64,000 nt of DNA from Thermoanaerobaculia bacterium (GCA_036522835.1 DATDFB010000034.1:4383-68382), one strand, 5' to 3'. Counted from the first letter of the stretch, positions 5,352-62,521 are shown. Notes: generated from the letters alone by a model not told the origin. Program-made: numbers and translations.

Positions 5352-9413
<4,062 letters not shown>

Positions 9414-13062: not shown

Positions 13063-13089
13063 GGCCTAACTGCCCTCACAAGCTGACAA
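13063..13089. repeat. right copy of 26-27-bp direct repeat GGCCTAACTGCCCTCACAAGCTGACAA
   Basis: See left copy at 11355-11380. Lies immediately before the duplicated lhr 3' remnant. Confidence 0.85.
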
Positions 13090-13101
13090 CGGCCGCGTCA
13101 A

Positions 13102-13204
13102 CGTCATCAGCGCCGCCGACCCCCTCAACCTCGCCGGCGTCCGCGCACACCCCTCCACCCGCCGGGCGGCGGGTGCCGGTGGCGGCGGGGTTCGTGGGAC
13201 GCTA
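13102..13204 (+). pseudogene. degenerate duplicate of the lhr 3' end (displaced target copy / attR-like remnant)
   Basis: Matches lhr 9215-9275 and 9371-9413, including the synonymous differences gcc/gca and agg/cgc. Lacks ~95 bp internally and is out of frame. Confidence 0.75.
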
Positions 13205-18601: not shown

Positions 18602-18696
18602 TTCTTGGTTCTTAGTTCTTGGTTCTTAGGTTCTTAGGTTCTTAAGTTCTCCAGGGGATTCAAACTAAGAACTAAGAACCTAAGAACTAAGAACCG
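18602..18696. repeat. hairpin built from tandem heptamers (unit GTTCTTAG / CTAAGAAC), AT-rich, copy H1
   Basis: TTCTTGG TTCTTAG TTCTTGG TTCTTAG GTTCTTAG GTTCTTAA ...loop... CTAAGAA CTAAGAAC CTAAGAA CTAAGAAC. Lies directly after the stop of the adaptor gene. Confidence 0.85.
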
Positions 18697-27701: not shown

Positions 27702-28421
27702 ATGAGAAAGAGTTTGATGACGGCAATGGCGCTCGCGCTCGTCTGCGCGAGCGCCTCCGCGTCGATGGAGGTGCTGGTCGAGGGCGCCCCCGTCCGCGAA
27801 TACCACCACAACGGCACGGTCTACATCGAGGCGCTGCGCGGACGCGACTTCTCGATCCGCCTGTCGAATCCGACACCGTACCGCGTCGCGGTGGCGCTGT
27901 CGGTCGACGGCCTGAATACGATCGACGCGCGCCACACCAGCGCCTGGAGCGCGCGCAAGTGGGTGCTCGACCCGTGGGAGTCGACGGTGATCTCCGGCTG
28001 GCAGGTCGACATGGGCACGGCGCGCCGCTTTTTCTTCACCGGCGAGCGCAACTCCTACGGCGCCGCGCTCGGCCAGACGCAGAACCTCGGCGTGATCGAA
28101 GCGGTGTTCTACCGCGAGCGGCCGCGCCGCCGCGACGCGAAGGTGGCGCCGCCGTCCCCGCCGGCGAGCGGGTCGGCCGCCGCGCCGAGGGAGATGGAGT
28201 CGAACAAGGGGATGGCGGACGAGTACGCGGCCACCGGCATGGGCGAGCGCGACCGCCACGAAGTCGAAGCCGTCGACATCGATCTCGACTCGACGCCCAT
28301 CGCCTCCGCGCGCGTCCGCTACGAGTTCCGCCCGCAGCTCGTGAGGTTGGGCGTGCTGCTGGAGCCGTCGCCGCTCGAGCGCCGGGAGGGGGCGCGGGGG
28401 TTCTGTCCGGAGCCGCGGTGA
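27702..28421 (+). CDS. secreted hypothetical protein
   Basis: CAGGAGG RBS; signal peptide MRKSLMTAMALALVCASASA. Confidence 0.5.
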   Translation: MRKSLMTAMALALVCASASASMEVLVEGAPVREYHHNGTVYIEALRGRDFSIRLSNPTPYRVAVALSVDGLNTIDARHTSAWSARKWVLDPWESTVISGWQVDMGTARRFFFTGERNSYGAALGQTQNLGVIEAVFYRERPRRRDAKVAPPSPPASGSAAAPREMESNKGMADEYAATGMGERDRHEVEAVDIDLDSTPIASARVRYEFRPQLVRLGVLLEPSPLERREGARGFCPEPR

Positions 28422-28423: not shown

Positions 28424-28480
28424 TGGAGTGCGCCGGCCATGCCGGCGCTGTGAGTGCGGCGGCATGGCCGCCGCACTCCA
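28424..28480. repeat. 57-bp nested palindromic element TGGAGTGCGSCGGCCATGCCGSCGCT-GTGAG-AGCGGCGGCATGGCCGCCGCACTCCA (family A, copy 1)
   Basis: Perfect 26-bp arms, each itself hairpin-forming around CCATGG/GCATGC. Full copies also at 46982-47038, 51860-51916 and 62465-62521. Half-copies at 34945-34958, 41435-41463 and 55734-55759. Confidence 0.9.
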
Positions 28481-28626: not shown

Positions 28627-28658
28627 GTGGAGGACAGGCAAGAGTGCCTGTCCTCCAC
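28627..28658. repeat. GGACAGGC-core hairpin, copy 3 (14-bp perfect stem)
   Basis: GTGGAGGACAGGCA-AGAG-TGCCTGTCCTCCAC. Confidence 0.85.
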
Positions 28659-28664
28659 TGAGCG

Positions 28665-31046
28665 TTACTGTTTCGGGCCGATGGTCGGACCGTCGCCGAC
28701 GACAAAGTACCCCGCCGGCACACCGCTCGCCTGACACTGCGCCGCGGCGGCTGCCGCGGCGGCATTCACGGCGTTGACGTCCGCCGCGCTGTTGCTCTTC
28801 GGCACGACGACGGGAACGCAGCGGCGGGTCGTGTTCAGCGATGGATCCGTGGCCGTCACGACGATGAGATAGACGCGGCCGTCGCCGGTGGCGTTGCGCT
28901 CGGCGCGGAGGCGCAGCGACCCGGCGGCGTCGGGCGACTGATCGCCGTTGGCCGGCGTGACGTCGTCCTCCTTGCTGAAGACGCCCGCGAAGGCAACGCT
29001 CGCGGAGCCGCTGTTGTCCGTTGCGCTGAAGGTCAGGCCGACGTCGACGAGGTCGTGATTCGGCGGCCAGAGCAGGCCGGTCGTCACCGAGGCCGAAAGC
29101 GCCGGCGGCTCGGTGTCGCGCACCGTGATCGTCACCGTCGCCGCAGCGGAGTCGACCGTGCCGTCGTTCGCCTGGTACGTGAACGTGTCGGTGCCGGTGA
29201 AGTGCAGATTCGGCGTGTAGGTGAAGCCGCCGTTCGCGCTGCCCGACACCGTCCCGTGCGACGCCGGCGTGTAGTGCACGGCCGTCAGCGCGTCACCATC
29301 GACATCCGTGTCGTTCGCCAGCACTCCCGGCGCCGTGACCGTCAGCGTCGTGTCCTGATCCATTGCGTACGCGTCGGCGTTCGCCACCGGCGGATCGTTC
29401 ACATTCGTCACCGTGACATGCACCGTGGCCGAGGCCGTGCCGCCGTTTCCGTCGCCGATCGTGTAGGTGAAAGTGTCGCTGCCGAAGAAATTCGCGTTGG
29501 GCGTGTAGCTGACCGATGACGCCGTGAACGTGACCGAGCCGTGCGCTCCCTGAGTGACCGCCGTGACGGTGAGCGTGTCGCCGTCGACGTCGCTGTCGTT
29601 CGCCAGCACGTTCACCGCATTCGCGCCACTGTCCTCAGCGATGGTCGTCGAGTCGTCGACCGCACTCGGCGGATCTTCGACGTTCAGCACCGTTATGCTG
29701 ACCGTGGCCGTGTCGGTGCCGCTGTGGCCGTCGTCGATCGTGTAGGTAAAGGAGTCGGTGCCTTGGAAGTTCGGATTCGGCGTGTAGCTGACGGACGACG
29801 CGCTGAACGTCACCGATCCGTGCGCGCCCTGCGTCACGGCCGTGATCGTGAGCGTGTCGCCGTTCGCGTCCGTGTCATTTGCAAGGACGTTGATCGCGTT
29901 CGCGCCGCTGTCCTCCGTCACTGTCGCCATGTCGTCGACCGCGTCGGGCGGCGAGTTGCTGCATGCCACCTGCCCCTCGAACGCGCCGACGTCCGCACCG
30001 TCGCCGCCCGTCGCATTCGCGATCGTGGCGTCGTCGCACGGCCGGGTCATGCCGCGCTGGTCGGTCGTCTCGCCGCTGCTGTTGCCTTGGTCAATGGCGA
30101 TGCTTCCGGCGAGGAGCGCGTGCGTCGGCGTCGTGCCGCCGTTGTTCTGCAGCGGCCCGAGTGCGACAGAGGCGTCGCTGACGCCGAGCTGGTCGGCCGT
30201 CGCGGCGGCCATCGAGCCGGTGCCGAGCGCGCCGACGACGTTGTAGCCGTTGCTGGTGATCGTGCCGTCGACGTTCGGCGCCGACGTGCCGCTGTTGCCG
30301 GCCACGATGCTGTTGCGCAGCGTGATCGTGCCGCCGGCGTTCTTCACCGCGCCGCCGCTGTTCGCGGTGATGGTGCTGTTCTTGACGTTGACGGTGCTGC
30401 TGCCGTCGGCGAGCACGGCGCCGGCGGACGTCGTGGCGGTGTTGCCGCTGATCGTCGAGTTGACGATGTTCACGATCGCGCCGTTCGTCGCGTAGATCGC
30501 CGCGCCGCTCACCGCGTGCGAGCCGGAGATCGTGCAGTTGATGAGGTTCAGCGTGGCGTGGTTGACGAGGATGGCGCCGCCGCTGCCCGACACCGAGCCG
30601 TGGACGATGTTGAGGTTCTGCAATGTGACGACGACGCCCGCAGCGCCGGCGGGGTTGATGTGGAAGATGCGGTCGAGCGACGCGGCGTCGATGGTCATGC
30701 CGGTGTCGGGGCCGACGATGGTCAGCGACTGGGTGATGTCCATGTCGCCGGTGAGCACGCCGTCCTCGCCGGCGCCCGGGAGCTCGAAGGTGATGGTGTT
30801 GAAGTAGGTGAGGAAGCTGATGGAGTCGGCGCCGCTGCCGGCGGCGCACTGCGGATATGGTGCACTGTCGGCGTTGGCGTTGCCGATGGCTTTGCGCAGC
30901 GTGCAGTGGTTGACGTCGGGGCGTTCGGGCGGCCCGAGGAGCGTGTCCTGCGGACCTTCGACTTGGAGATCGGTGGCGAAGAGTGCGGGAGCGATGACCA
31001 GGAACAGGGCAATGGCAAGACCCGATAGAGAGCGGTTCGGGCGCAT
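28665..31046 (-). CDS. large secreted right-handed beta-helix protein with tandem ~95-aa Ig/cadherin-like (VCBS-type) repeats; adhesin-like
   Basis: Signal peptide; Asn/Ser/Thr/Gly-rich beta-helix repeats (..NSTISGNTATTSAGAV..NSTITANSGG..). Then three or more near-identical repeats (DDxATVTEDSGANAxNVLANDTDxxGDTLTxTAVTQGAHGSVTF..SYTPNxNFxGTDxFTYTIxDG). Confidence 0.75.
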   Translation of the reverse strand: MRPNRSLSGLAIALFLVIAPALFATDLQVEGPQDTLLGPPERPDVNHCTLRKAIGNANADSAPYPQCAAGSGADSISFLTYFNTITFELPGAGEDGVLTGDMDITQSLTIVGPDTGMTIDAASLDRIFHINPAGAAGVVVTLQNLNIVHGSVSGSGGAILVNHATLNLINCTISGSHAVSGAAIYATNGAIVNIVNSTISGNTATTSAGAVLADGSSTVNVKNSTITANSGGAVKNAGGTITLRNSIVAGNSGTSAPNVDGTITSNGYNVVGALGTGSMAAATADQLGVSDASVALGPLQNNGGTTPTHALLAGSIAIDQGNSSGETTDQRGMTRPCDDATIANATGGDGADVGAFEGQVACSNSPPDAVDDMATVTEDSGANAINVLANDTDANGDTLTITAVTQGAHGSVTFSASSVSYTPNPNFQGTDSFTYTIDDGHSGTDTATVSITVLNVEDPPSAVDDSTTIAEDSGANAVNVLANDSDVDGDTLTVTAVTQGAHGSVTFTASSVSYTPNANFFGSDTFTYTIGDGNGGTASATVHVTVTNVNDPPVANADAYAMDQDTTLTVTAPGVLANDTDVDGDALTAVHYTPASHGTVSGSANGGFTYTPNLHFTGTDTFTYQANDGTVDSAAATVTITVRDTEPPALSASVTTGLLWPPNHDLVDVGLTFSATDNSGSASVAFAGVFSKEDDVTPANGDQSPDAAGSLRLRAERNATGDGRVYLIVVTATDPSLNTTRRCVPVVVPKSNSAADVNAVNAAAAAAAAQCQASGVPAGYFVVGDGPTIGPKQ

Positions 31047-32596: not shown

Positions 32597-34215
32597 TCCC
32601 CCGCCTCCAGCGCTTCTTCGCCCAGCTCATCAGCGAAACCTCCGGCCTCGCGCTGGAGGACACGCTCGTCCTGGCGCGGCAGTCGCCGCAGCTCTCCGAC
32701 GAGCCGGACCTCGGCGCGTGCATCGCGGAGTTCCACGACCTCCTGGGCAAGTTCCGGCTGCAGCAAACACCGATCGAGACGCTGCTTGCGCATCCGGTGT
32801 CGAACGCGCTCGAGGCCTTCTTCCGCGCCTTTCCGATTCCGTTTCACGACGAGCACATTCATCTCACCGGCTCGCTCGACGCGGAGTTCGTCTATCCGCG
32901 TCTCGCGGCGCTGCTCGCGGGGCCGCACCGCGCGTTATATGAGAAGAAAATCCGCGACGTCTACGGCGACGAAGCATTGCCGATCAGAGATGCAGCAGAC
33001 GTCGACCGCCTCATTCGTCTCAAGGAAGGGGAGCGCTTCGACCGCTACCTGCGCATCCTCTACCTCCCGAAGCTCATCCTCACCTCGCGCCAGGCGCACC
33101 GCGACGCGGCCAGGCACATGGCCACGCGCCTCCTGCGCGACGGCAACGTCGGCTCGATCCGGCTCAAGTTCACCCTCTTCCGCGAGACCACCGACCCGGC
33201 CGAGCAGATCCCCGGCATCTCCGAGGTCACGCCGGACGACGTCATCCTCGGGCTGACCGAGGGCTTTCGCGACGTACAGGGCTTCCGCTTCATCCTCTCG
33301 CCGGGCTTCCGCAAGGAGCCGGGCTTCTACGACGCGACGCGCTATCCGTCGAAGCGCGCCAGCTTCGACGATCAGGTCGGGCAGATCATCGACCTCTTGA
33401 AGCGCCATCCCGAGCTGTGCGACGTCGTCACCGAGGTCGACACCGTGGGCAACGAGCGCGGGTTCTATCGCAAAGTGCACTTCCAGGAGATGCGCGTCGG
33501 CATCCGCAAGCTGCAGGCGTACGGTTTCCGCACGCGCAGCCATCACGGCGAGACGTGGGACACGCTGCGCCAAGGCGTGCAGGCCGTCGACAACGCCATG
33601 AACATCTGGCACGTCGACGCCGTCGAGCACGGCCTCAGCATGGGCATCAACCCGAACTTCTACTTCCACAGCCTCCTGCAGCGCGTCCTCGGTGCGAACC
33701 GCCGCGGCGAGCCGGTCGAGCCGGGCTCGCGCGAGCATGCCGAGCTCCTCGACATGGACTGGAGCGACCGCGAGGAGATCCGCGACAAGCTCCTCTCCGG
33801 CGCACCGCTCTCGCGCGGCGAGGCCACGCTGGCCACGAAGACGAAGTTCCATCACGCGCGCGAGGTCGAGCACTACCAGCACGACGTCTTGAACCGCATG
33901 ATCGACAAGCGCCTCACCCTCGTGTCGCTGCCGTCGTCGAACAAGAAGCTCACCGGCGCGCTGGCCGACTACGCCGACCATCCGTTCTCCTGGTGGGAGA
34001 AAAAGGGTCTCCGCCTGGGCGTCGGCACGGACAACGACGTCACGCTCTCCACGTCGTTCGTGCGCGAGATGCTCATCCTCCTCTACACTGATCCGACGGA
34101 GCTCAAGATCACGAAGCTGCTCATCGTCACCACCGGCGAGTCGCGCCGCGCGCACCTCAGCCATCTCTTGTGGCAGATGCGGAAGAGCCATGACGAACAT
34201 CCTGATCGTCGATGA
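32593..34215 (+). CDS. adenosine/AMP-deaminase-family metal-dependent hydrolase (540 aa, N-terminal extension)
   Basis: Family metal-ligand motifs in order: ..DEHIHLTGSLD.. (HxH), ..SHHGE.. (H-x-G-E), ..HVDAVEHGL.., ..GVGTDNDV.. (the xTDDP-like motif). Confidence 0.65.
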   Translation: MIPRLQRFFAQLISETSGLALEDTLVLARQSPQLSDEPDLGACIAEFHDLLGKFRLQQTPIETLLAHPVSNALEAFFRAFPIPFHDEHIHLTGSLDAEFVYPRLAALLAGPHRALYEKKIRDVYGDEALPIRDAADVDRLIRLKEGERFDRYLRILYLPKLILTSRQAHRDAARHMATRLLRDGNVGSIRLKFTLFRETTDPAEQIPGISEVTPDDVILGLTEGFRDVQGFRFILSPGFRKEPGFYDATRYPSKRASFDDQVGQIIDLLKRHPELCDVVTEVDTVGNERGFYRKVHFQEMRVGIRKLQAYGFRTRSHHGETWDTLRQGVQAVDNAMNIWHVDAVEHGLSMGINPNFYFHSLLQRVLGANRRGEPVEPGSREHAELLDMDWSDREEIRDKLLSGAPLSRGEATLATKTKFHHAREVEHYQHDVLNRMIDKRLTLVSLPSSNKKLTGALADYADHPFSWWEKKGLRLGVGTDNDVTLSTSFVREMLILLYTDPTELKITKLLIVTTGESRRAHLSHLLWQMRKSHDEHPDRR

Positions 34216-36001
34216 CAACCCGACCTTCCGCGCGCAGGCCGCGCGGATTTGCGAGGCCGAGGGCTTCAGCACGCTCTCGGCGGGATCGCTGTCCGAGCTC
34301 GCGGCGCTGCTCCCGACGGCGTCGCCCGACCTCGTCCTCGTCGACATCGAGCTGCCGGAGATCCCCGGCCATCGCCTCGGCGCGCTGATTCGCTCGCGCC
34401 ACAAAGTGCCGATCGTGCTCGTGTCGGCACTCAAGGAAGAGAGCGTGCGGCGGTTGTTCGACGTGTCGGACGCCGACGGCTGGATCTGCAAGCCGCTGAC
34501 GCGGGAGAAGCTCCTCGGCGCCGTGACGCGGTTCGTGTTGAAGGAGACGCCGCACGGCGCCGCGGCGGTGCCGCAGACGACGACCGGGACAGGCAAGCGT
34601 GTGCTCCTCGTCGAAGACGATCCCGTCATCGCCGCGCGCATCGAGTTCGCCCTCGGCAAGGACTGCGCGGTGACGGTCGTCGAGGACGGCGAGGCGGCGA
34701 TCCGCCACCTTTTGTCGGAGAGCTACGACTGCGTGCTCCTCGACCTCACGCTCGCGCACCTCAGCGGCTTCGACGTGCTGCGGCACATGATCGTGCGCCA
34801 GCCGCACTACCTGAAGTCGACGATCATCATGACCGCGGCGACCGACGAGTCGCTGCAATTCATCGACCGCAAGACCGTCGCCGCGGTGATGCGCAAGCCG
34901 TTCGACCTCGGCGACCTTCACGGCGTGGTCATGGCGACGTGATGTGGAGTGCGGCGGCTCGCCATTGTTTTCCTCTTCGTCGAGAAAGTTTGACACCCCC
35001 AACCCCGCCAGGCGGTAGCGCGCGCTTTCCCCGAACGCAAACTTCCCCAGCAGCTCCGTCCCGACCCGCGCGAGCTCCTCGGCGCTCGCCGGCGGGGCCT
35101 CCAGCGTCGTGCGGCGCGTGGCGGTCTTGAAGTCGCCGGTGCGCAGCTTCACCGTGATCGTGCGGCCGAGGAGCTTGCGCTCCGTGAGCGCGGCGAAGAG
35201 CGACTCCGCTTCGTTGCGGATATAGGCAGCGACTTCATCGAGAGTGATGTCGGTGCGGAACGTGTTCTCGCTCGAGTACGACTTCCGCTCGCGGTTCGGC
35301 TCGACCGGGCTCTCGTCGATGCCGCGCGCCAGCTCCCAGAGGCGCGTGCCCCACTTGCCGAAGCGCTCCACGAGCTGCTCCTGCGTGAAGCGTTGGAGGT
35401 CGCCGACCGTGGCCACGCCCATCTCCGTCATCACCGCCTCGGTGGCCTTGCCGACGCCGGGGATCTTCCGCACCGGCAGCCCCACGAGGAAGCGCTCGAC
35501 CTGGTGCGGGCGGATCACGAACAACCCATCCGGCTTTTTCCAGTCCGAGGCGATCTTGGCGAGGAACTTGTTCGGCGCCACGCCGGCCGACGCCGTCAAC
35601 TGCGTCTCCGCGCGAATCTCCGCGCGGATTTTCTCCGCCGTCTCCGTCGCCGTCGGAATCCCCGTCAGCTCCTGCGTGACATCCAGATAGGCCTCGTCGA
35701 GCGAGAGCGGCTCGACCAGCGGCGTGTGGCGCTCGAAGATCTCGCGGATCTGCCGCGACACGGCGCGGTACTTGTCGAAGTCGGGGTGGATGAACTCCGC
35801 CGCCGGGCAGAGCCGCCGCGCGCGGCTTGCCGGCATGGCCGAGTGCACGCCGAACTTGCGGGCCTCGTACGACGCGGCACAGACCACGCTGCGCTCGCCC
35901 GGCCAGCCGACGATCACCGGTAGCCCACGCAGCTCGGGGCGGTCGCGCTGCTCGACGGATGCGTAGAATGCATCCATATCGATATGGATGATCTTTCTCA
36001 C
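34157..36001 (-). CDS. dinB: DNA polymerase IV (Y-family); the ORF lacks a stop at the expected position and the 3' coordinate is unreliable
   Basis: MRKIIHIDMDAFYASVEQRDRPELRGLPVIV.. classic DinB. The conserved region ends at ~34950 (..LGVSNFLDEE), but the frame stays open for 265 more codons antisense through the REC-REC gene. The half family-A repeat at 34945-34958 sits exactly at this junction. Confidence 0.7.
   Translation of the reverse strand: MRKIIHIDMDAFYASVEQRDRPELRGLPVIVGWPGERSVVCAASYEARKFGVHSAMPASRARRLCPAAEFIHPDFDKYRAVSRQIREIFERHTPLVEPLSLDEAYLDVTQELTGIPTATETAEKIRAEIRAETQLTASAGVAPNKFLAKIASDWKKPDGLFVIRPHQVERFLVGLPVRKIPGVGKATEAVMTEMGVATVGDLQRFTQEQLVERFGKWGTRLWELARGIDESPVEPNRERKSYSSENTFRTDITLDEVAAYIRNEAESLFAALTERKLLGRTITVKLRTGDFKTATRRTTLEAPPASAEELARVGTELLGKFAFGESARYRLAGLGVSNFLDEEENNGEPPHSTSRRHDHAVKVAEVERLAHHRGDGLAVDELQRLVGRRGHDDRRLQVVRLAHDHVPQHVEAAEVREREVEEHAVVALRQKVADRRLAVLDDRHRAVLAEGELDARGDDGIVFDEEHTLACPGRRLRHRRGAVRRLLQHEPRHGAEELLPRQRLADPAVGVRHVEQPPHALFLECRHEHDRHFVARANQRAEAMAGDLRQLDVDEDEVGRRRREQRRELGQRSRRERAEALGLANPRGLRAEGRVVIDDQDVRHGSSASATRDG
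34190..34942 (+). CDS. tandem receiver-domain (REC-REC) response regulator, no output domain
   Basis: Two CheY-like modules: ILIVDDNP..LVLVDIELP..K, and VLLVEDDPV..CVLLDLTLAHLSG..MRKPFD. Overlaps the upstream gene by 26 bp. Confidence 0.75.
   Translation: MTNILIVDDNPTFRAQAARICEAEGFSTLSAGSLSELAALLPTASPDLVLVDIELPEIPGHRLGALIRSRHKVPIVLVSALKEESVRRLFDVSDADGWICKPLTREKLLGAVTRFVLKETPHGAAAVPQTTTGTGKRVLLVEDDPVIAARIEFALGKDCAVTVVEDGEAAIRHLLSESYDCVLLDLTLAHLSGFDVLRHMIVRQPHYLKSTIIMTAATDESLQFIDRKTVAAVMRKPFDLGDLHGVVMAT
34945..34958. repeat. family-A palindromic element, one-arm remnant
   Basis: TGGAGTGCGGCGGC, then divergence. Lies at the dinB / REC-REC gene convergence point. Confidence 0.6.
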
Positions 36002-37504: not shown

Positions 37505-40500
37505 TTGCTTGGGACCCAACGTGATCCAGATCACGAAATCGACCGCAGAAGCCGTTACCATGCGGTCACAGGTCCCTGCGTGCCCATTCACACGCTATCC
37601 GCCGGGTTAGCGCGCGATGCTCTTGCACTCGCGACGCTCTTCACCGCCGTGGCCATTTTTCTCCTCGGCGGTGCCGTCATTGCGCGCGGCCGCGCCTCGC
37701 TCCTCTCCAGCCTTTTTTTTCTCATGACTTTCGGCGCGAGCGGGTGGCTGGCCTTCGACGCCGCCACGTTCGTCGCGGGCGACGCCGCCCTCGCTGTAGC
37801 CTTCGCCCGCGCCGCTCTCGCCTCGGCCTGCGTCGTCCCGGCGGCGGTCTTTCACTTCGCCGCCGTCTACACGAAGCGCTCGAGGCGGCTGGCCGGCGTC
37901 GTGGCCGCCTGCTGGATCTTCTGCGCGGCCGTCGCCGTGGCCGCGCTCTTCACGCCGCTGATCATTCCCGGCGTCCACCAATACTCGTGGGGCTTTTACG
38001 GTCGCACGTCCGTCGCCGACCTCGTCTGGATCGCGCTCTTCGTGGCCATGCTCGTCGCCAGCATCCGCCTCATCGCGCGCCTCGCGAAGGAAGACGATCC
38101 GCTGACGCGCGCCGGCGCGCGGGCCATCGTCGTGGCCTGCATCGCCGGCCTCTTCGCCGGGGTCAACCTCCTGCCGGCGTTCGGCGTCGGCATCGTGCCG
38201 CTCGGTTTTCTGGCGCTGCTCGCTTTCGTCGGCCTCTCGGCGAACGCCATCTGGCGCTATGGTCTCGTGCAGCTCACGCCGCAGTTCGCCGCGGAGCAGG
38301 TGCTGGCGACGATGAAGGGCGCCGTCCTCGTCGTCGACCTCGAGGCGAAGATCCGCGTGGCCAACGACGCCGCCTGCTCGATGCTCGGCTACAAGGAAAA
38401 CGATCTCGTCGGGCAACCGCTGAAGAAGATCTTCGACGAGGCCGACAAGATCAGCACCGGAAAGCTGCTGCACAGCATGGGCATCCTGGAGCGGAGCATG
38501 GGATGGCGCGCCGCGGACGGGACGCGCATCGAGGTGGCGGCGACGTCGTCGTTCATCCGCGACCGCGAGGGGACGCCGGTGGGCGTCGTCTACGTGGCCA
38601 CCGATGTCACCGAGCGCCGCCGCGCCGAGCAGGCCATGCGCGAGAGCGAGCACCGCTACCGCACGCTCTTCGACGGCAATCCGCTGCCGATGTGGATCTA
38701 CGACTTCGAGACGCTGCAATTCCTGGCCGTCAACGAGGCGGCCACGCGCACGTACGGCTACTCGAAGAGCGAGTTCCTGCGTATGGGCATCATGGACATT
38801 CGTCCGGCCGAGGATCTGCCGCGGATGCATGCGCGGCTCGCGGAGCTGCGCGAGCGGACGGCGCCGATGCTGTTCCGGCACCGCAAGAAAGACGGGACGA
38901 TTTTCTGGGTCGAGGTCACGTCGTACGAGTTCGTGACCGGCGGACGTCGCGCGCGGCTGGTGATCTCGGTCGACGTCACCGAGCGCCAGCGCGCCGAGCA
39001 GCTCGTGCGCGAGAGCGAGGAGCGCTACCGGAGTCTCGTCGAGCTGTCGCCCGACGCGATCATGCTCCACGCCGACCGCCGCTTCATTTTTCTCAACCAG
39101 GCCGCCGTCGAGCTCCTCGGCGCGAACAGCGCGGACGATCTGATCGGCACGTCGATCATCGACCGCGTCCATCCCGACTCGCGCAACGTCGTGGCCAACC
39201 GCCTGCGCACGCTCGACGAAGGGCACGACGTGCCGATGGTGGAGGAGAAGTTCCTCCGCCTCGACGGCAGCGTGGTGGAGGTCGAGGTGGCGGCGATCTC
39301 CTTCGTCTTCAACGGCCGCCCGGCCGTGCAGGTCGTGGCGCGCGATATCTCGCAGCGCAAGCAGATCGAAGAGCGCTATCGACTGCTCTTCGAGCGCAAC
39401 CTGGCCGGCGTGTTCCGCACCAGCATCGACGGGCGCATCCTCGACTGCAACGACGCCCTGGCGCGCATCTTCGGCTACCGCAACAAGGAAGAGCTGCTGG
39501 CGCGGTCGGCGCCCGACGTGTACTTCGATCTGCAGGACCGCGAGAACGTGCTGAACGAGCTGCGCGAGCACGGGTCGCTGACGAACGTCGAGACGCGCAT
39601 GCGCCGCGCCGACGGCCGCGAGCTGTGGGTGCTGGAGAACGTGACGCTGAGCGAGTCGCGCGGCGAGATGGAAGGGACGATCATCGACATCACCGAGCGC
39701 AAGACGGCGCAGGAACAGATCGAGTATCAGGCCTTCCACGACGTGCTCACCGGGCTGCCGAACCGGCGGCTCTTCCGCGACCGCATCGGCGTGGCCCTGG
39801 CGCACGCGCGGCGGCAGCGCAGCGGCATCGCCGTGATGTTCCTCGACCTCGATCAGTTCAAGCTGGTGAACGACACGCTCGGGCACACGGTGGGCGACGC
39901 GCTGCTGCAGGCCATCGCCGGCCGCCTGGTCGGCTGCGTGCGCGCCGAGGACACGGTGGCGCGCATGGGCGGCGACGAGTTCACCATTCTCGTGTCGAAC
40001 ACGACCGACCGCCGCGCCGCCGGCATCGTCGCCCAGAAGGTGCTGGAGACGGTGGCGCATCCGGCGGTCGTGGACGGACACGAGCTCTTCGTCACGACCT
40101 CGCTCGGCATCTCGATGTTCCCCGACGACGGCACCGACGCGGAGACGCTGCTCAAGAACGCCGACCGGGCCATGTACCGCGCCAAGGAAGCGGGGCGCAA
40201 CAATTTCCAGTACTCGACGACCGACGCGTTCGACACGGCCGTGGGGCGGCTGTCGATCGAGGCCAGCCTGCACCACGCGCTCGAGCGCGAGGAGCTGGTG
40301 GTGCATTACCAGCCGATCATCGACCTCGCTTCGCACGACATCGTCGGCGCCGAGGCGCTGGTGCGCTGGAAGCATCCCGACAACGGGCTGATGGGGCCGG
40401 ACGACTTCATCCACATCGCCGAGGAGTGCGGGCTGATCGTGCCGATGGGGGAGTGGATCCTGCGCACGGCCTGCGGGCAGATGAGGGAGTGGCACGACGC

Positions 40501-41029
40501 CGGGCACGAGGGGCTGCGCATCGCCGTGAACCTCTCGCCGCGGCAGTTCCAGCAGCGCGAGCTGCCGGCCATGATCGAGCGCGTGCTGCGCGACACCGGC
40601 CTGGCGGCGGAGCTGCTCGACATCGAGATCACCGAGTCGGCGGCGATGCAGAACGCCGAGCAGTCGCTGGCGATCATGCGCAAGTTGAAGGAGATGGGGG
40701 TGCGGATCTCGATCGACGACTTCGGTACCGGCTATTCGTCGCTGTCGTACCTGAAGCGGTTTCCCATCGACACGGTGAAGATCGATCAGAACTTCGTGCG
40801 CGACCTCGCCCAGTCGGCGAACGACGCCGCCATCGTGACGGCGGTGATCTCCATGGCCCGCGCCCTGAAGCTCGGCGTGATCGCCGAGGGGGTGGAGACC
40901 GAGGAGCAGCTCGCGTTCCTCAGGCGCGAGCAGTGCGAGACCATCCAGGGGTTCCTCTATAGCCGGCCCGTGCCGGCGGACGAGTTCGGGGCGGCGCTGC
41001 GCAGCGCCGGCGTCGCGCCGGCGTCGTAA
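37505..41029 (+). CDS. membrane sensor PAS(x4)-GGDEF-EAL diguanylate cyclase/phosphodiesterase
   Basis: N-terminal polytopic domain; repeated PAS modules with RRRAEQ linkers; ..RMGGDEFTIL.. (GGDEF); ..EALVRW..DDFGTGYSSL.. (EAL). Start codon uncertain. Confidence 0.85.
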   Translation: MLGTQRDPDHEIDRRSRYHAVTGPCVPIHTLSAGLARDALALATLFTAVAIFLLGGAVIARGRASLLSSLFFLMTFGASGWLAFDAATFVAGDAALAVAFARAALASACVVPAAVFHFAAVYTKRSRRLAGVVAACWIFCAAVAVAALFTPLIIPGVHQYSWGFYGRTSVADLVWIALFVAMLVASIRLIARLAKEDDPLTRAGARAIVVACIAGLFAGVNLLPAFGVGIVPLGFLALLAFVGLSANAIWRYGLVQLTPQFAAEQVLATMKGAVLVVDLEAKIRVANDAACSMLGYKENDLVGQPLKKIFDEADKISTGKLLHSMGILERSMGWRAADGTRIEVAATSSFIRDREGTPVGVVYVATDVTERRRAEQAMRESEHRYRTLFDGNPLPMWIYDFETLQFLAVNEAATRTYGYSKSEFLRMGIMDIRPAEDLPRMHARLAELRERTAPMLFRHRKKDGTIFWVEVTSYEFVTGGRRARLVISVDVTERQRAEQLVRESEERYRSLVELSPDAIMLHADRRFIFLNQAAVELLGANSADDLIGTSIIDRVHPDSRNVVANRLRTLDEGHDVPMVEEKFLRLDGSVVEVEVAAISFVFNGRPAVQVVARDISQRKQIEERYRLLFERNLAGVFRTSIDGRILDCNDALARIFGYRNKEELLARSAPDVYFDLQDRENVLNELREHGSLTNVETRMRRADGRELWVLENVTLSESRGEMEGTIIDITERKTAQEQIEYQAFHDVLTGLPNRRLFRDRIGVALAHARRQRSGIAVMFLDLDQFKLVNDTLGHTVGDALLQAIAGRLVGCVRAEDTVARMGGDEFTILVSNTTDRRAAGIVAQKVLETVAHPAVVDGHELFVTTSLGISMFPDDGTDAETLLKNADRAMYRAKEAGRNNFQYSTTDAFDTAVGRLSIEASLHHALEREELVVHYQPIIDLASHDIVGAEALVRWKHPDNGLMGPDDFIHIAEECGLIVPMGEWILRTACGQMREWHDAGHEGLRIAVNLSPRQFQQRELPAMIERVLRDTGLAAELLDIEITESAAMQNAEQSLAIMRKLKEMGVRISIDDFGTGYSSLSYLKRFPIDTVKIDQNFVRDLAQSANDAAIVTAVISMARALKLGVIAEGVETEEQLAFLRREQCETIQGFLYSRPVPADEFGAALRSAGVAPAS

Positions 41030-41079
41030 CAACGGTTCCTCGGGAGGTTCCGTCAAGGGCCAGGAGGGAACCGTGCGTG

Positions 41080-41402
41080 CCCGGCGTGGCCGCACGCGCG
41101 TCCACGATGTGCCGCAATGCGTCCCGGCGCGGCCGCACGTGCGTCCACGATGTGCCGCAATGCGTCCCGGCGTGGCCGCATGCGCGTCCACGGTGTGCCG
41201 CAATGCGTCCCGCTGTGGCCGCACGCGCGTCCACGGTGTGCCGCAATGCGTCCCGGCGCGGCCGCACGCGCGTCCACGGTGTGCCGCAATGCGTCCCGGC
41301 GTGGCCGCACGTGCGTCCACGGTGTGCCGCAATGCGTCCCGGCGTGGCCGCACGTGCGTCCGCGGTGTGCCGCAATGCGTCCCGGCGTGGCCGCACGTGC
41401 GT
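41080..41402. repeat. tandem array, 43-bp unit CCCGGCGTGGCCGCACGCGCGTCCACGATGTGCCGCAATGCGT x 7.5
   Basis: Eight phased copies with scattered SNPs (g/a, c/t). No unique spacers, so this is not a CRISPR array. Unit length is not a multiple of 3. Confidence 0.9.
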
Positions 41403-41434
41403 CGCCGTCCGGTGCCGGCGGAAGATCTCTCGTG

Positions 41435-41463
41435 TGGAGTGCGGCGGCCGCGCCGCCGCTGTC
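41435..41463. repeat. family-A palindromic element, one-arm copy
   Basis: TGGAGTGCGGCGGCCGCGCCGCCGCT. Confidence 0.7.
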
Positions 41464-45712: not shown

Positions 45713-45767
45713 CAGGTGACAGGTGATTACCCGTGACCTGTGACCCGTCACCTGTGACCCGTCACCT
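45682..45767. repeat. hairpin built from tandem heptamers (unit GGTGACA / GGTGACG), copy H3; overlaps the last 9 codons of rsgA
   Basis: GGTGACG GGTGACA GGTAACA GGTGACA GGTGA-TTAC-CCGTGAC CTGTGAC CCGTCAC CTGTGAC CCGTCACC. Encodes the ..VTGRVTGDR tail of RsgA. Confidence 0.85.
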
Positions 45768-46980: not shown

Positions 46981-46981
46981 T

Positions 46982-47038
46982 GTGGAGTGCGCCGGCCATG
47001 CCGGCGCTGTGAGAGCGGCGGCATGGCCGCCGCACTCC
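46982..47038. repeat. family-A 57-bp palindromic element, copy 2
   Basis: TGGAGTGCGCCGGCCATGCCGGCGCTGTGAGAGCGGCGGCATGGCCGCCGCACTCCA. Confidence 0.9.
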
Positions 47039-47041
47039 AGA

Positions 47042-47500
47042 TCACCAACGATGGTACGCGGGATGTCCTTCCTTCACGGCCACGAACGTGCCGCGGCACG
47101 TGGCCGTCACCTTCTCGTTCGCCGTCATCGTCGCTTCGACGACGGCGCGGTCTTCGCCGGACTCGACGATGCGCGCGCGGAGGTGCACTGGCACGTTCAT
47201 CGGCGTCGGGCGTTTGAGAAAGACGTGGAAGTCCGCCGTCACCGTGCAGGGCGGCGTGGCGCTGCCGCTCTTGCGCATCAGGTGCACCGTCGCGGCCCAA
47301 TTGCTGTGGCAGTCGAGCAGTGCGCCGATGATGCCGCCGTTGAGCACATCGTCGAACGCGGCGTGGTGCGGCTCGGGCGACCACGTGCAGACGAGGTCGT
47401 CGCCCTCCTCGAAGCTCTGGATGCGCAGCCCTTTGTCGTTGGCCGGGCCGCAGCCGAAGCAGCGGTTCTGCGGCGCGTAGGTTTCCTGGACGCTTTTCAT
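47042..47500 (-). CDS. hotdog-fold thioesterase (PaaI/YbgC-like)
   Basis: MKSVQETYAPQNRCFGCGPANDKGLRIQSF.. with NGGIIGALLD motif. Confidence 0.6.
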   Translation of the reverse strand: MKSVQETYAPQNRCFGCGPANDKGLRIQSFEEGDDLVCTWSPEPHHAAFDDVLNGGIIGALLDCHSNWAATVHLMRKSGSATPPCTVTADFHVFLKRPTPMNVPVHLRARIVESGEDRAVVEATMTANEKVTATCRGTFVAVKEGHPAYHRW

Positions 47501-47510
47501 GCGCCCAAGC

Positions 47511-50677: not shown

Positions 50678-52359
50678 CGCCGCTCCACGATGATGATGCC
50701 GCGATGCGCGTAGATGCGGCGGAAGAGGCGCAGCGGCGCGCCGTCATACGCGCGTTTCCACACGGTCGAGCGCGGCACCAGCTCCGGATCGAGGCCGAGG
50801 ATCGTCGCGGCGGAGAGCATGCCGCGCGGCCCCTCGTAGATGACGAAGCGGACGCCTTGCTCGTCGCAATAGCGCGCCAGCGACTCCTCGTGCGTGGTGA
50901 GGAAGGCGTCGTGCGCACGCTCGAAGGCGATGCGGTCGGGCATGGTGCCGAAGTTGTCGATGACGACGGGGCGCCCCGCCACGACGTCGAGCAGATGCCC
51001 GACCGACCACGGCGCGAGTACGCGTCCCGGCGGCTGCGTCTGCAGAAATCGTGCGGCCTCGAACCACGGCCGGAATGCCAGCGACGGCGGCCGCACGGGG
51101 TGCAGCATCCAGAGGGCGAATTGCACGGGCGGGGCGATGGCCACGGCGGCCAGCGCGAGCTGCCGCAGCCAGCGGCGCTCGAACGATACGGCGGCGATCG
51201 CGCCGGCGATGGCCAGAAGCGGCACGCCGACGCTCCAGAATCGCCGCGAAGTGATGGCGAGCAATAGATAGAGGATGGCGAACGGCGCGACGACGCGGTC
51301 CCGCCGCACGAGCGACCAGACGAGCACGGCGCCGATGCCGAGCCCCACCACGATCGAGAGGATGTCCTCGGTCGACCCGCGCCAGAGCGGCTGAAATTCC
51401 TGGATCGTACGCAGCCACGGCTCGCCGCCGAAGAAGGTCGAGCCTTCGAGGAGAGCTCCCGGCGCGGAGGGCGTGGCGAGGACGACACACGCGCCGGCGA
51501 GGAGGGCGAAAAAAGATCCCTCGCCCCGCTTGCGGGGAGAGGGTGGCGCCGAAGGCGCCGGGTGAGGGGCGATGCCTGCAGGATGGCGCCCCTCATCCGG
51601 CGCTGCGCGCCACCTGTACGCGCACGCCACCGCCGCCGCCCCGAAGAGCGCGGCGTGCGTCCAGCCGAGGAACCAGGCGTTGTCGGGGTAGCCGGGCGGG
51701 CGGGTGACGCGGTAGAGCGCGATGGCAACGGCGCCGATGCCGAAGGCGATCGCGCCGGCCCGGCCGTCGGTGCTGAAGAAGAGGATGACGAACACGAGTG
51801 CGGCGGCGACGAGGAGGGCGGTCTGCACGAACATGGCGGCGGTCAATGCCAGCGCGATCTGGAGTGCGGCGGCCATGCCGCCGCTGTCAGAGCCGCGGCA
51901 TGCCCGCCGCACTCCACAAATCATCCCCACCACGAAAATCGGCTCCGTCCAATGGTGGTCGATGCTGCCGATCCACGACTGCGTCACCACGAACGGCGAC
52001 GCCGCCAGCGCCGCGCCCGCCGCGATCGCCACCGCGCGTCCGAAGCGCCGGTCCATCCACAGCACGACCGCCGCGACGAAGAGCGCCGAGCCGATCGGCG
52101 GGATCCACTTCACGCGCGCCAGCACCTCGGCCTGCGTCGTCGCGCCGGTCAGATGGGCGATGCCGCCAAGGAGGCGGTCGTAGAGCGGAGGCCAGGGGCA
52201 GAAGGCGTTGCGGTCGGCGTCGAAGTCGACGAAGTGCGTCATCCGCTTGAGGTGATACAGCTCGTCGACCGGCGAGAGCTCCCACCACGCGGCGTTGCTC
52301 ACCCGGAAAGCCAGCGCGGTGGCGAACGCGACGATGACCAGAAACATCCTCACGCGCAC
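50674..52359 (-). CDS. polytopic membrane glycosyltransferase-like protein (PMT/ArnT/STT3-like fold, assignment tentative)
   Basis: 561 aa with 10 or more hydrophobic helices. The ORF is continuous across two in-frame repeat elements (family D at 51515-51615; family A at 51860-51916). ATGA overlap with the LMF gene. Confidence 0.5.
   Translation of the reverse strand: MRVRMFLVIVAFATALAFRVSNAAWWELSPVDELYHLKRMTHFVDFDADRNAFCPWPPLYDRLLGGIAHLTGATTQAEVLARVKWIPPIGSALFVAAVVLWMDRRFGRAVAIAAGAALAASPFVVTQSWIGSIDHHWTEPIFVVGMICGVRRACRGSDSGGMAAALQIALALTAAMFVQTALLVAAALVFVILFFSTDGRAGAIAFGIGAVAIALYRVTRPPGYPDNAWFLGWTHAALFGAAAVACAYRWRAAPDEGRHPAGIAPHPAPSAPPSPRKRGEGSFFALLAGACVVLATPSAPGALLEGSTFFGGEPWLRTIQEFQPLWRGSTEDILSIVVGLGIGAVLVWSLVRRDRVVAPFAILYLLLAITSRRFWSVGVPLLAIAGAIAAVSFERRWLRQLALAAVAIAPPVQFALWMLHPVRPPSLAFRPWFEAARFLQTQPPGRVLAPWSVGHLLDVVAGRPVVIDNFGTMPDRIAFERAHDAFLTTHEESLARYCDEQGVRFVIYEGPRGMLSAATILGLDPELVPRSTVWKRAYDGAPLRLFRRIYAHRGIIIVERR
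51515..51615. repeat. ~100-bp structured repeat element, copy 2 (same family as 8073-8190), in-frame inside the membrane GT-like gene
   Basis: CTCGCCCCGCTTGCGGGGAGAGGGTGGCGCCGAAGGCGCCGGGTGAGGGGCGATGCCTGCAGGATGGCGCCCCTCATCCGGCGCT. Read on the minus strand it encodes ..HPAPSAPPSPRKRGEGSFF... Confidence 0.8.
51860..51916. repeat. family-A 57-bp palindromic element, copy 3, in-frame inside the membrane GT-like gene
   Basis: TGGAGTGCGGCGGCCATGCCGCCGCTGTCAGAGCCGCGGCATGCCCGCCGCACTCCA. Encodes ..RRACRGSDSGGMAAALQ.. on the minus strand. Confidence 0.85.
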
Positions 52360-52442
52360 AGAATAAATTCACTTGCCATTTTGTCCCGCTTGCCGCACGC
52401 TGTTGCAGTCGTCCAAGACGTTCCGACAATCGAGGAATCAAA

Positions 52443-55733: not shown

Positions 55734-55759
55734 TGGAGTGCGGCGGCCATGCCGCCGCT
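55734..55759. repeat. family-A palindromic element, one-arm copy
   Basis: TGGAGTGCGGCGGCCATGCCGCCGCT, starting 3 nt after the parE stop. Confidence 0.75.
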
Positions 55760-62464: not shown

Positions 62465-62521
62465 TGGAGTGCGGCGGCCATGCCGCCGCTGTGAGAGCGG
62501 CGGCATGGCCGCCGCACTCCA
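62465..62521. repeat. family-A 57-bp palindromic element, copy 4
   Basis: TGGAGTGCGGCGGCCATGCCGCCGCTGTGAGAGCGGCGGCATGGCCGCCGCACTCCA, between parC and lspA. Confidence 0.9.

What the first reader, a model, noticed from the sequence alone, without database searches (positions are those of the whole stretch)
28424..28480. Family-A 57-bp nested palindromic element present at 7 loci in 64 kb (4 full, 3 half)
Consensus TGGAGTGCGSCGGCCATGCCGSCGCT-GTGAG-AGCGGCGGCATGGCCGCCGCACTCCA. The arms are perfect 26-mers and each arm is itself a hairpin, so the element can fold as one long stem or as a two-hairpin cruciform.
- Full copies: 28424-28480, 46982-47038, 51860-51916 (in-frame inside a membrane-protein gene), 62465-62521.
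- One-arm copies: 34945-34958, 41435-41463, 55734-55759.

Copies sit precisely at gene boundaries (stop of 27702-28421; start of the ereA-like gene; parE stop; the parC/lspA gap; the dinB/REC convergence). The ORF track's recurring MRRPCRR../MECGGHA.. pseudo-ORFs are translations of this element. The density is on the order of one copy per 10 kb, i.e. REP/BIME-like.
Basis: seen in the sequence. Interest (0 to 1): 0.55.

Follow-up and report, generated by a model that had tools for sequence, protein, structure and literature searches.

The report
RAYT-linked REP/REPIN palindromic repeat family
A 26-base hairpin-forming repeat, often paired into a 57-base palindrome, is scattered through this soil acidobacterial DNA and is a REP/REPIN-type miniature mobile element. 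In related genomes the same repeat flanks a tyrosine-transposase (RAYT) gene, so this is an ordinary kind of bacterial repeat, but I found no published description of this family.

Summary
The arm TGGAGTGCGSCGGCCATGCCGSCGCT occurs 11 times (0 expected), at 8 loci rather than 7. There are 4 inverted doublets, 3 single arms including a missed one at 7081-7106 inside an Lhr helicase gene, and 1 truncated head.

It is a REP/REPIN family.
- In two other assemblies, one a Thermoanaerobaculia MAG, a Y1/HUH transposase that matches NCBIfam "REP-associated tyrosine transposase" is flanked on both sides by this same repeat.
- Three more homologues (52-65% identical) are flanked by repeats that keep the head TGGAGT[GA]CGG...CCGC but differ in the distal stem and loop.
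- Each arm's own 8-bp hairpin is kept by compensatory changes (5 of 8 pairs; 0/500 shuffles). The two arms of a doublet usually differ from each other.
- Two syntenic relatives lack the element at three occupied sites.
- Doublets matching a window copy over 62-64 nt sit at unrelated loci in soil metagenomes.
- The exact 24-mer core occurs in at least 59 stretches of genome contigs, mostly Thermoanaerobaculia MAGs but also several other phyla.

No RAYT lies in the window. No copy looks like an intrinsic terminator, and Rfam has no match. Several heads start 2 nt after a stop codon. One doublet is in frame inside an STT3 gene.

Verdict: new member of a known kind, of modest interest.

The parts
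7081..7106 (+). Single REP arm (TGGAGTGCGCCGGCCAGGCCGGCGCT, loop CAG) in frame inside the Lhr-like helicase ORF 5352-9413, encoding ..VECAGQAGAL..
   Evidence: It aligns to a variable linker of M. smegmatis Lhr (5v9x) and is not a net insertion.
28424..28480 (.). REPIN doublet: + arm 28424-28449 (stem GCGCCGGC), spacer GTGAG, - arm 28455-28480 (stem GCGGCGGC). It starts 2 nt after the stop of 27702-28421 (+), in a convergent gap before 28665-31046 (-).
34945..34958 (+). Truncated 14-nt head remnant (TGGAGTGCGGCGGC), 2 nt after the stop of the response-regulator gene 34190-34942, at the convergence with dinB.
41435..41460 (+). Single REP arm with loop CGC, at the end of a 43-bp tandem array downstream of the PAS-GGDEF-EAL gene 37505-41029.
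46983..47039 (.). REPIN doublet (+ arm stem GCGCCGGC, spacer GTGAG, - arm stem GCGGCGGC). With 3 flanking bases it fills the whole gap between the stop of the thioesterase-like gene 47042-47500 (-) and the true ATG (46981-46979) of the erythromycin-esterase-like gene.
   Evidence: Relatives L070 and L071 have a 4-nt gap or overlapping codons here.
51860..51916 (.). REPIN doublet (spacer GTCAG, second arm degenerate) in frame inside the STT3-like oligosaccharyltransferase gene 50674-52347 (-), encoding CGVRRACRGSDSGGMAAALQ in a loop of variable length.
55734..55759 (+). Single REP arm inside the 30-nt gap between the parE stop (55729-31) and the ATG of the TPR/multihaem gene (55762).
   Evidence: L070 has a 9-nt gap at this junction.
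62465..62521 (.). REPIN doublet with two identical arms (a perfect 26-bp stem) and spacer GTGAG. It fills the gap between the parC stop (62460-62) and the lspA start (62523 or 62526).
   Evidence: The orthologous junction in metagenome contig L074 carries the doublet in flipped orientation.

Best explanation
These are REPs (single 26-28 nt units: T-S-TGGAGT, an 8-bp GC stem, loop CAT, the stem complement, then T) and REPINs (two REPs head-outward around a 5-nt spacer). They are non-autonomous elements copied in trans by a REP-associated tyrosine transposase (RAYT, an HUH/Y1 enzyme).

By analogy with E. coli RayT and IS200/IS605 TnpA, the enzyme would recognise each folded arm hairpin plus its conserved 5' head on single-stranded DNA, then cut and rejoin it, seeding copies into short intergenic gaps and occasionally into tolerant coding loops.

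Shown here: the repeat family, the conservation of the arm hairpin, the RAYT-repeat linkage in other genomes, and empty orthologous sites.

Inferred: the catalysis, the single-strand stage, and the presence of an active RAYT in the genome this window comes from.

Secondary effects on the host messages are plausible but untested. These include very stable RNA hairpins starting about 8 nt after stop codons and lying immediately before downstream start codons.
For: 1. Repetition far above chance: 11 arms against 0 expected.

2. RAYT linkage.
- tblastn with E. coli RayT found a Y1 gene next to a doublet in Thermoanaerobaculia contig JADGNX010000115.1.
- In L064 the gene (1622-2173) is flanked by ~120-nt composite REPINs whose outer arms carry heads at 1429/1548 and 2180/2299.
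- In L065 (65% identical RAYT) the gene (966-1517) is flanked by inverted copies of TTGGAGTGCGGCGGCCATGCCGCCGCT at 839 (+) and 1594 (-), a REPtron layout.
- Three further homologues (L066, L067, L068; 52-64% identical) are flanked by REPs that keep TGGAGT[GA]CGG...CCGC but have different distal stems and loops.

3. Protein identity.
- NCBIfam NF047646 'REP-associated tyrosine transposase' scores 90.6, 93.5 and 83.2 bits (cut-off 80) for P0002, P0019 and P0028, and 72.4 for P0001.
- The HUH histidines, the catalytic Tyr and the Asn align with E. coli RayT.

4. Hairpin selection.
- Of 129 occurrences of GGAGT-N8-CAT-N8, 115 pair 8/8.
- Five of 8 pairs change on both sides, and 0/500 shuffles reach the observed values of four of the five measures (3/500 for the number of pairs changed on both sides).
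- In 16 short-spacer doublets there are 3 intra-arm mismatches against 42 inter-arm differences.

5. Mobility.
- Syntenic relatives L070 and L071 (STT3 84-87% identical) have no arm in about 42 kb.
- They show unoccupied states at the ereA, parE/TPR and STT3 sites.
- Copies identical over 62-64 nt to a window copy sit in unrelated metagenome loci.

6. Typical REP placement. Six of 8 loci are after stop codons in co-directional or convergent gaps. Across loci there is a sharp peak of heads exactly 2 nt after a long-ORF stop: 9 at 2 nt and 4 at 3 nt. Di Nocera et al. 2013 (PMC3733652) describe the same habits for known REPs, including REP termini that supply stop codons and intragenic copies.
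Against: - No RAYT lies in the 64-kb window or in the seven contigs that carry the window-type doublet. A cognate enzyme in this particular genome is therefore assumed, not seen.
- The 5' foot is [G/C/A]TGG (GTGG in 7 of 12 window heads), not the canonical GTAG.
- The unoccupied sites are not clean. At STT3, 63 nt stand where relatives have 33 nt. At parE the relative already has TAATCTGG. Loss, replacement or microhomology cannot be told apart from simple insertion.
- There is no target-site duplication and no experimental evidence of cleavage or movement.
Confidence: 0.85

Rival explanations
1. Fossil or domesticated REPs. The family was spread by a RAYT in the past, but in this genome the enzyme is gone. 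The copies would persist only as RNA or DNA hairpins that the host tolerates or uses, for example for mRNA 3'-end protection or ribosome stalling at stop codons.
For: - No RAYT in the window or in the contigs with the window-type doublet.
- Decayed copies exist (34945-34958, second arm of 51860-51916, loop variants at 7081 and 41435).
- The parC-lspA copy is shared with a relative about 85-91% identical in DNA, so at least that insertion is old.
- Hairpins begin about 8 nt after stop codons, within the 15-nt range at which E. coli REPs stall terminating ribosomes (Liang et al. 2015, as cited in PMC12306157).
Against: - Copies identical over 62-64 nt at unrelated loci suggest recent copying.
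- Close relatives lack the copies.
- A RAYT is normally single-copy, so its absence from 64 kb says little.
Confidence: 0.1
2. A MITE derived from a classical DDE insertion sequence, with the arms as terminal inverted repeats mobilised by a conventional transposase.
For: It is short and palindromic, has inverted termini and is dispersed.
Against: - No consistent target-site duplication.
- Single arms are common.
- No larger element carries these ends. Both sides of every copy are ordinary genes.
- The only gene found repeatedly flanked by the repeat is a Y1/HUH RAYT.
Confidence: 0.02
3. Hairpins evolved in place as intrinsic terminators or protein-binding operators, not as mobile DNA.
For: GC-rich hairpins placed right after genes. 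The folds are very stable (z about -9; RNA -50 to -63 kcal/mol).
Against: - None of the four copies in 45000-64000 is called terminator-like, because no T tract follows.
- Three sit inside operon-like junctions that abut the next start codon, and two lie inside ORFs.
- The same sequence occurs at unrelated loci and across phyla.
- There is no Rfam family match.
Confidence: 0.03

Closest known systems
E. coli REP/BIME elements and their RayT (TnpA-REP, YafM)
   Same: - A short GC-rich hairpin with a conserved unpaired 5' head.
- Singles and inverted pairs of two slightly different arm types (compare the Y and Z REPs of BIMEs; stated from my own knowledge).
- Placement after stop codons.
- A cognate HUH/Y1 gene flanked by the repeat. 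The HUH and Tyr motifs align and NF047646 matches.
   Different: - Only 17% protein identity to E. coli RayT.
- The head is TGGAGT rather than GTAG.
- The hairpin is a clean 8-bp stem with a 3-nt loop, without the bulges of E. coli REPs.
- The host is Acidobacteriota.
Pseudomonas fluorescens REPIN-RAYT systems (Bertels & Rainey 2011, PMC3116915, PMC3337134)
   Same: - The doublet of two inverted REPs around a short spacer appears to be the copied unit.
- There are many near-identical copies.
- The RAYT is flanked by the same sequence.
   Different: - The spacer is only 5 nt in this window, though 60-90 nt with extra inner hairpins in other MAGs.
- The same 24-nt core is shared across phyla, whereas REPIN populations are described as lineage-specific and vertically inherited (PMC5581495).
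GTAG-tagged REP superfamily, including Stenotrophomonas SMAGs (Di Nocera et al. 2013, PMC3733652)
   Same: - A tag at one end, a 6-13 bp stem and a 2-3 nt loop.
- Sub-families that differ by complementary stem changes.
- Dimers with the tags on the outside.
- Termini that supply stop codons.
- Copies inside replication or repair genes.
   Different: The tag fits GT[AG]G only as GTGG, and only in part of the copies. The invariant block is TGGAGTGCGG.
TnpA-Y1 subclass 2.8 of Quentin et al. 2018 (PMC6006769)
   Same: The motif signature matches: NHYH, then W[YH], then a Y..N(P) tyrosine motif. That paper describes REPtron-like flanks of long REPs, and close relatives in unrelated phyla.
   Different: The assignment rests on motif comparison only, with no tree. 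That subclass was sampled from Cyanobacteria and is described with GT[AG]G feet.
IS200/IS605 family ends (IS608, ISDra2)
   Same: Sub-terminal hairpins are recognised on single-stranded DNA by an HUH/Y1 enzyme, and there is no target duplication.
   Different: No transposase lies inside the element, and the copies are 26-57 nt. No fixed target tetranucleotide could be demonstrated.
Rickettsia palindromic elements (in-frame insertions in genes; from my own knowledge)
   Same: A palindromic repeat is carried in frame inside protein-coding genes (STT3 loop, Lhr linker).
   Different: The sequence and host are unrelated, and here most copies are intergenic.

Membership tests
REP / REPIN-RAYT system | A short (about 20-40 nt) imperfect palindrome present in many dispersed copies | tested here: met
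   11 arms at 8 loci in 64 kb against 0 expected. At least 59 stretches in genome contigs. 7 metagenome contigs carry the exact doublet.
REP / REPIN-RAYT system | A conserved unpaired 5' foot, classically GT[AG]G, next to the hairpin | tested here: inconclusive
   There is an invariant head TGGAGT 5' of the stem. The tetranucleotide is GTGG in 7 of 12 window heads, CTGG in 3 and ATGG in 2. It is CGG or TGG in other MAGs. A conserved head exists, but it is not the canonical GTAG.
REP / REPIN-RAYT system | The hairpin is maintained, with sub-families that differ by complementary stem changes | tested here: met
   Five of 8 pairs change on both sides, 95.8% of cells are paired, and no shuffle in 500 reaches the observed values of four of the five measures; 3 of 500 reach the observed number of pairs changed on both sides. 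115 of 129 anchored occurrences pair 8/8.
REP / REPIN-RAYT system | Inverted doublets (REPINs) as a frequent form | tested here: met
   4 doublets in the window and 16 short-spacer doublets across loci. Longer composite forms and tandem clusters occur in MAG DATEZA.
REP / REPIN-RAYT system | Mostly extragenic, downstream of genes, in co-directional or convergent gaps | tested here: met
   Six of 8 window loci. There is a peak of heads 2-3 nt after long-ORF stops.
REP / REPIN-RAYT system | A cognate RAYT gene flanked by the same REP (REPtron) | tested here: met
   Met in other genomes: L064 and L065 are flanked by this REP, and L066-L068 by head-conserved variants. NF047646 scores above its cut-off for 3 of 4 proteins. 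Not met inside the window, and the rest of this genome is not available.
REP / REPIN-RAYT system | The RAYT cleaves and rejoins its REP on single-stranded DNA | not testable with these tools
   This needs biochemistry. Only conservation of the HUH and Tyr residues was shown.
MITE of a DDE insertion sequence | Terminal inverted repeats plus a target-site duplication and a parent IS | tested here: not met
   There is no consistent duplication at 12 window heads or 10 metagenome heads. No parent IS was found. Unoccupied sites show no duplicated target.
Intrinsic (Rho-independent) terminator | A GC-rich hairpin followed by a T/U tract | tested here: not met
   None of the four copies in 45000-64000 is among the 20 terminator-like sites. 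The tails are CTATG, CATGA, GATCA and similar.
Described RNA families (Rfam 15) | A match to a curated covariance model | tested here: not met
   No match at gathering score in the window. Only generic hairpin noise appears in five loci.

The most novel reading that the evidence does not exclude
REPs with the head TGGAGTGCGG...CCGC, together with their NHYH/WY-type RAYTs, would form a distinct cross-phylum REP superfamily beside the GTAG and CGTC ones.

The identical 24-nt hairpin core is present in Acidobacteriota, Sumerlaeota, Hydrogenedentes, Brocadiia (Planctomycetota) and Myxococcota genomes whose loci have 56-74% G+C. That would imply either horizontal spread of a REPIN-RAYT system or extreme co-conservation of enzyme and substrate. 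Either would run against the picture of strictly vertical, lineage-specific REPIN populations.

The fixed asymmetry of the doublet (two different arm types, with the spacer in one orientation at all 8 window loci) would then mark functional left and right ends and a replication-strand bias.
Probability: 0.3. Interest if true: 0.55.

Novelty: new member of a known kind. Interest (0 to 1): 0.35.

Why it matters
- **Annotation.** Knowing this family prevents errors in these poorly studied soil Acidobacteriota. Gene callers placed the starts of the esterase and lspA genes on the CATG loop of the repeat. The arm also generates recurring pseudo-ORFs.
- **A usable enzyme-substrate pair.** It provides a well-defined RAYT-REP pair outside the Proteobacteria. 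The head is conserved and the distal stem varies, which is useful for asking what a RAYT actually reads.
- **Insertion tolerance.** Such elements can sit flush between a stop and the next start codon of essential operons (parE, parC-lspA), and in frame inside a membrane glycosyltransferase.

If the cross-phylum sharing of the identical core is real, it bears on whether REPIN-RAYT systems move horizontally.

Tried and rejected
- **Rfam.** No family at gathering score in the window. Only generic miRNA- or HCV-like hairpin noise in five loci.
- **RAYT signature search.** A regular-expression search for Y[ILVM]..NP[ILVAM] in six-frame translations of all loci found nothing. This clade has YVHQNAV or YVQQNPV in a context the first set of loci mostly lacked. 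tblastn with E. coli RayT then found it.
- **Candidate RAYT sites.** Widely spaced inverted arms in L047 and L022 held no transposase. The weak tblastn hit in L052 lies in a large unrelated ORF.
- **Literature string search.** Searching for GGAGTGCGG / CCGCACTCC returned only primers and unrelated sequences.
- **Viral contigs.** No exact match.
- **Fixed insertion target, IS608-style.** The relative's parE site has TAATCTGG already, but the ereA and STT3 sites do not fit. No rule could be derived.
- **Lhr copy as a net insertion.** Rejected. It replaces a linker of similar length.
- **Taxonomy from cluster names.** The listing of cluster members gave no organism names.
- **Other kinds of element.** CRISPR, integron attC and Xer sites were considered and dismissed by inspection: the arms are inverted, not direct, and there is no GTTRRRY core.

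Full report
**1. Observation**

The sequence at 28424-28480 reads TGGAGTGCGCCGGCCATGCCGGCGCT-GTGAG-TGCGGCGGCATGGCCGCCGCACTCCA. Searching the 26-nt arm with up to 3 mismatches gives 11 matches on both strands, against none in 100 dinucleotide-preserving shuffles. The repeat finder recovers the same family independently.

The matches resolve into:
- four inverted doublets: 28424-28480, 46983-47039, 51860-51916, 62465-62521;
- one 14-nt head remnant at 34945-34958.

Only the 62465 copy has perfectly complementary arms. In the 28424 and 46983 copies one arm has stem GCGCCGGC/GCCGGCGC and the other GCGGCGGC/GCCGCCGC.

As free single strands the doublets fold best as one long stem: DNA -31 to -42 kcal/mol, RNA -50 to -63, z about -9. 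The two-hairpin form is about 10-18 kcal/mol weaker (DNA parameters).

**2. Host and context**

The window is 61-69% G+C. Its ParE protein is found identically on soil-metagenome contigs. The closest named homologues of its STT3-like protein come from Thermoanaerobaculia (Acidobacteriota) MAGs.

Gene calls and Pfam hits place the copies as follows.
- **28424-28480:** 2 nt after the stop of 27702-28421, in a convergent gap.
- **34945-34958:** 2 nt after the stop of a response-regulator gene, at the convergence with dinB.
- **41435-41460:** after a 43-bp tandem array downstream of a PAS-GGDEF-EAL gene.
- **46983-47039:** between the stop of a thioesterase-like gene and the start of an erythromycin-esterase-like gene.
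- **55734-55759:** within the 30-nt gap between the parE stop and a TPR/multihaem gene.
- **62465-62521:** between the parC stop and the lspA start.
- **7081-7106:** in frame inside an Lhr-like helicase.
- **51860-51916:** in frame inside an STT3-like oligosaccharyltransferase.

Gene callers put the starts of the esterase and lspA genes on the CATG in the repeat's loop. Comparison with relatives shows that the real starts lie just beyond the element.

**3. Distribution**

- Most hits are in Thermoanaerobaculia and 'Acidobacteria gp7' MAGs.
- Others are in four Sumerlaeota MAGs, a Hydrogenedentes MAG, a Brocadiia MAG, a Myxococcota MAG (three copies) and a Gemmatimonadaceae MAG.
- The single Bacteroidales hit has a mismatched stem and could be chance.
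- The loci from the other phyla have 56-74% G+C, so they are not one mis-binned organism.

In other MAGs the same arm is joined to different inner modules. In DATEZA these are extra hairpins that all carry the GGCCATGCC loop motif, arranged in tandem clusters with a period of about 156 nt. In DATKFO the arm is followed by a TTGGGT... tail.

The exact window-type doublet occurs in seven metagenome contigs. These represent four new loci unrelated to the window and one orthologue of the parC-lspA junction. There is none in viral contigs.

**4. The transposase**

A tblastn search with E. coli RayT hit a Thermoanaerobaculia contig immediately beside a doublet.
- The protein (P0001, 183 aa) has NHYH, WY and YVHQNAV motifs. 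Its HUH histidines, catalytic Tyr and Asn align with RayT.
- It has 2840 database relatives at E <= 1e-10. Many carry PF01797, and some are named REP-associated tyrosine transposase by their source.
- NCBIfam NF047646 scores 72-94 bits against a cut-off of 80. Pfam Y1_Tnp is weak.

The flanks of the gene carry the repeat.
- **L064:** the gene is flanked on both sides by ~120-nt composite REPINs whose outer arms are this repeat.
- **L065:** a 65% identical homologue is flanked by inverted copies of TTGGAGTGCGGCGGCCATGCCGCCGCT, heads outward.
- **L066, L067, L068:** three more homologues, one from a Pirellulaceae MAG, are flanked by repeats that keep TGGAGT[GA]CGG...CCGC but differ in distal stem and loop.

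All five RAYT loci examined thus show the linkage. No RAYT lies in the window, in its syntenic relatives or in the metagenome contigs. That is unsurprising for a gene that is typically single-copy (PMC5581495).

By motif signature the clade resembles subclass 2.8 of Quentin et al. (PMC6006769). This is a lead, not a phylogenetic assignment.

**5. Which structure is conserved**

I anchored only on GGAGT-N8-CAT-N8. Of 129 occurrences, 115 form all 8 pairs.

Seven stem variants are fully compensated: GCGCCGGC, GCGGTCGC, GCGGTGCC, GCGGCAGC, GCGCAGGC, GCTCGGCC and GCGGTGGC. On 18 distinct arms, 5 of 8 pairs change on both sides. No shuffle in 500 reaches the observed values of four of the five measures (3 of 500 do for the number of pairs changed on both sides), and the slid controls collapse.

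In 16 short-spacer doublets there are 3 intra-arm mismatches against 42 differences between the two arms. The arm hairpin is therefore the conserved unit, and doublets are typically pairs of unlike arms.

One caveat: each locus was ascertained through one canonical arm, so doublets of two variant arms could not be seen. Doublets of two canonical arms could have been seen, and they are rare. Templated correction within a palindrome could also produce compensation without selection.

**6. Mobility**

Two syntenic relatives cover window ~43.8-62 kb in reverse orientation: L070 (Thermoanaerobaculia DATELQ010000062.1) and L071. They contain no arm at all.
- **Esterase junction.** The relatives read TGGTAGCGCCGTGCTCC or TGGTGATGCC. 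The window reads TGGTGA-TC-[57 nt]-C-ATGCTCC.
- **parE junction.** L070 reads TAATCTGGCGTCATG. The window reads TAATC-[26-nt arm]-CTATG.
- **STT3.** The relatives have 33 nt (AGVRDRRPLLL) where the window has 63 nt, inside a loop whose length varies across the family.

The sites are not clean enough to define a target or a footprint, and there is no target duplication.

The parC-lspA copy is shared with a relative about 85-91% identical in DNA. There the spacer and arm types are flipped, so the element has been inverted or re-inserted in place.

**7. Relation to stop codons**

In the window and the window-type contigs, position -2 before TGGAG is T in 22 of 22 heads. Position -3 is mostly A, so the terminus often reads T[GA]AT[CG].

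Across 119 arms, 28 have the stop of a long ORF within 45 nt upstream. Of these, 9 are at exactly 2 nt and 4 at 3 nt. Di Nocera et al. reported the same habit for GTAG REPs supplying TAG (PMC3733652).

The hairpin then begins about 8 nt after the stop. That is within the 15 nt at which E. coli REPs stall terminating ribosomes (Liang et al. 2015, as cited in PMC12306157). This consequence is inferred, not tested.

None of the four copies in the scanned 45000-64000 stretch resembles an intrinsic terminator, and Rfam has no matching family.

**8. Verdict**

This is a REP/REPIN family with a demonstrable RAYT partner in related genomes.

It is a new member of a known kind. The anatomy and habits match described REPs, but neither the head (TGGAGTGCGG) nor this family turned up in the literature I could search.

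The less ordinary points are:
- the identical core shared across phyla;
- the consistent two-arm asymmetry;
- the uniform orientation of all eight window copies (two-sided p about 0.008, which cannot be separated here from replication direction);
- the in-frame copies in STT3 and Lhr.

Noticed in passing
window 41037-41446: A 43-bp tandem repeat (about 9.5 copies, 73-93% identical to the reference copy; unit roughly GTGCCGCAATGCGTCCCGGCGTGGCCGCACGTGCGTCCACGGT) lies between the PAS-GGDEF-EAL gene and the REP arm at 41435.
   Followed up: no
window 8066-8103, 8158-8193, 51514-51549: A second palindromic repeat family (CCCTCTCCCCGCAAGCGGGGAGAGGG-like). All three copies lie inside ORFs: two in Lhr and one in STT3. 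The STT3 copy falls in a segment absent from several close homologues in alignment A1. A similar motif sits at the esterase junction of L071.
   Followed up: partly
window 8760-8796 and 28632-28668: A third palindrome family, GGAGGACAGGCA-N-TGCCTGTCC(TCC). One copy is inside Lhr, and one is just past the stop codon (28665-28667) of the cadherin-like gene 28665-31046.
   Followed up: no
window 56221-56369: Two 68-nt copies (88% identical) of a nested palindrome rich in GGTGACGGGTGA / TCACCCGTCACC lie inside the TPR/multihaem ORF 55762-57549. That protein is 595 aa, against 550 aa for the L070 orthologue, so this may be another in-frame repeat insertion.
   Followed up: no
window 18607-18658 and 53730-53791: Short tandem runs of the 8-mer GGTTCTTA occur in two places: one between two + strand genes (18601/18684), the other between the end of an upstream gene (53735) and the parE start (53836).
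   Followed up: no
window 4299-4567: Dense 21/42-bp direct repeats overlap a 99-nt inverted repeat (77% complementary) in an intergenic region.
   Followed up: no
window 34157-36001 (-): The DinB-like ORF is 614 aa. Its IMS_C domain ends near residue 344. The frame then reads through the truncated REP remnant and continues antisense to the response-regulator gene without a stop. The truncation may have removed the dinB stop codon.
   Followed up: partly
window 9202-9275 and 13089-13162: A 74-nt direct repeat, 97% identical, lies 3.9 kb apart. The first copy is the 3' end of the Lhr gene. The region 8-16 kb has lower G+C (0.61 against 0.68). This could be an integrated element with att-like duplication.
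   Followed up: no
L074:46-113 versus window 62460-62526: The orthologous parC-lspA junction in a relative carries the same doublet at the same position, but flipped: spacer CTCAC instead of GTGAG, with the variant arm on the other side. The parC stop is TAA instead of TGA.
   Followed up: partly
L067:1501-3082: Two tandem RAYT genes 98% identical, each followed by head-conserved REPs, with an upstream array of short GCCACACTCCAGATAGAAA-like units. This is unusual for a gene family usually present once per genome.
   Followed up: no
window, all eight copies: All four single or truncated arms are on the + strand. All four doublets have the GTGAG/GTCAG spacer on the + strand, although two of them lie in minus-strand genes. 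This is possibly a replication-strand bias.
   Followed up: partly
window 46999 and 62505: Automatic gene calls start the esterase-like and lspA genes at the ATG formed by the CATG loop of the repeat. Comparison with relatives puts the true starts just outside the element, at 46981 and at 62523 or 62526.
   Followed up: yes
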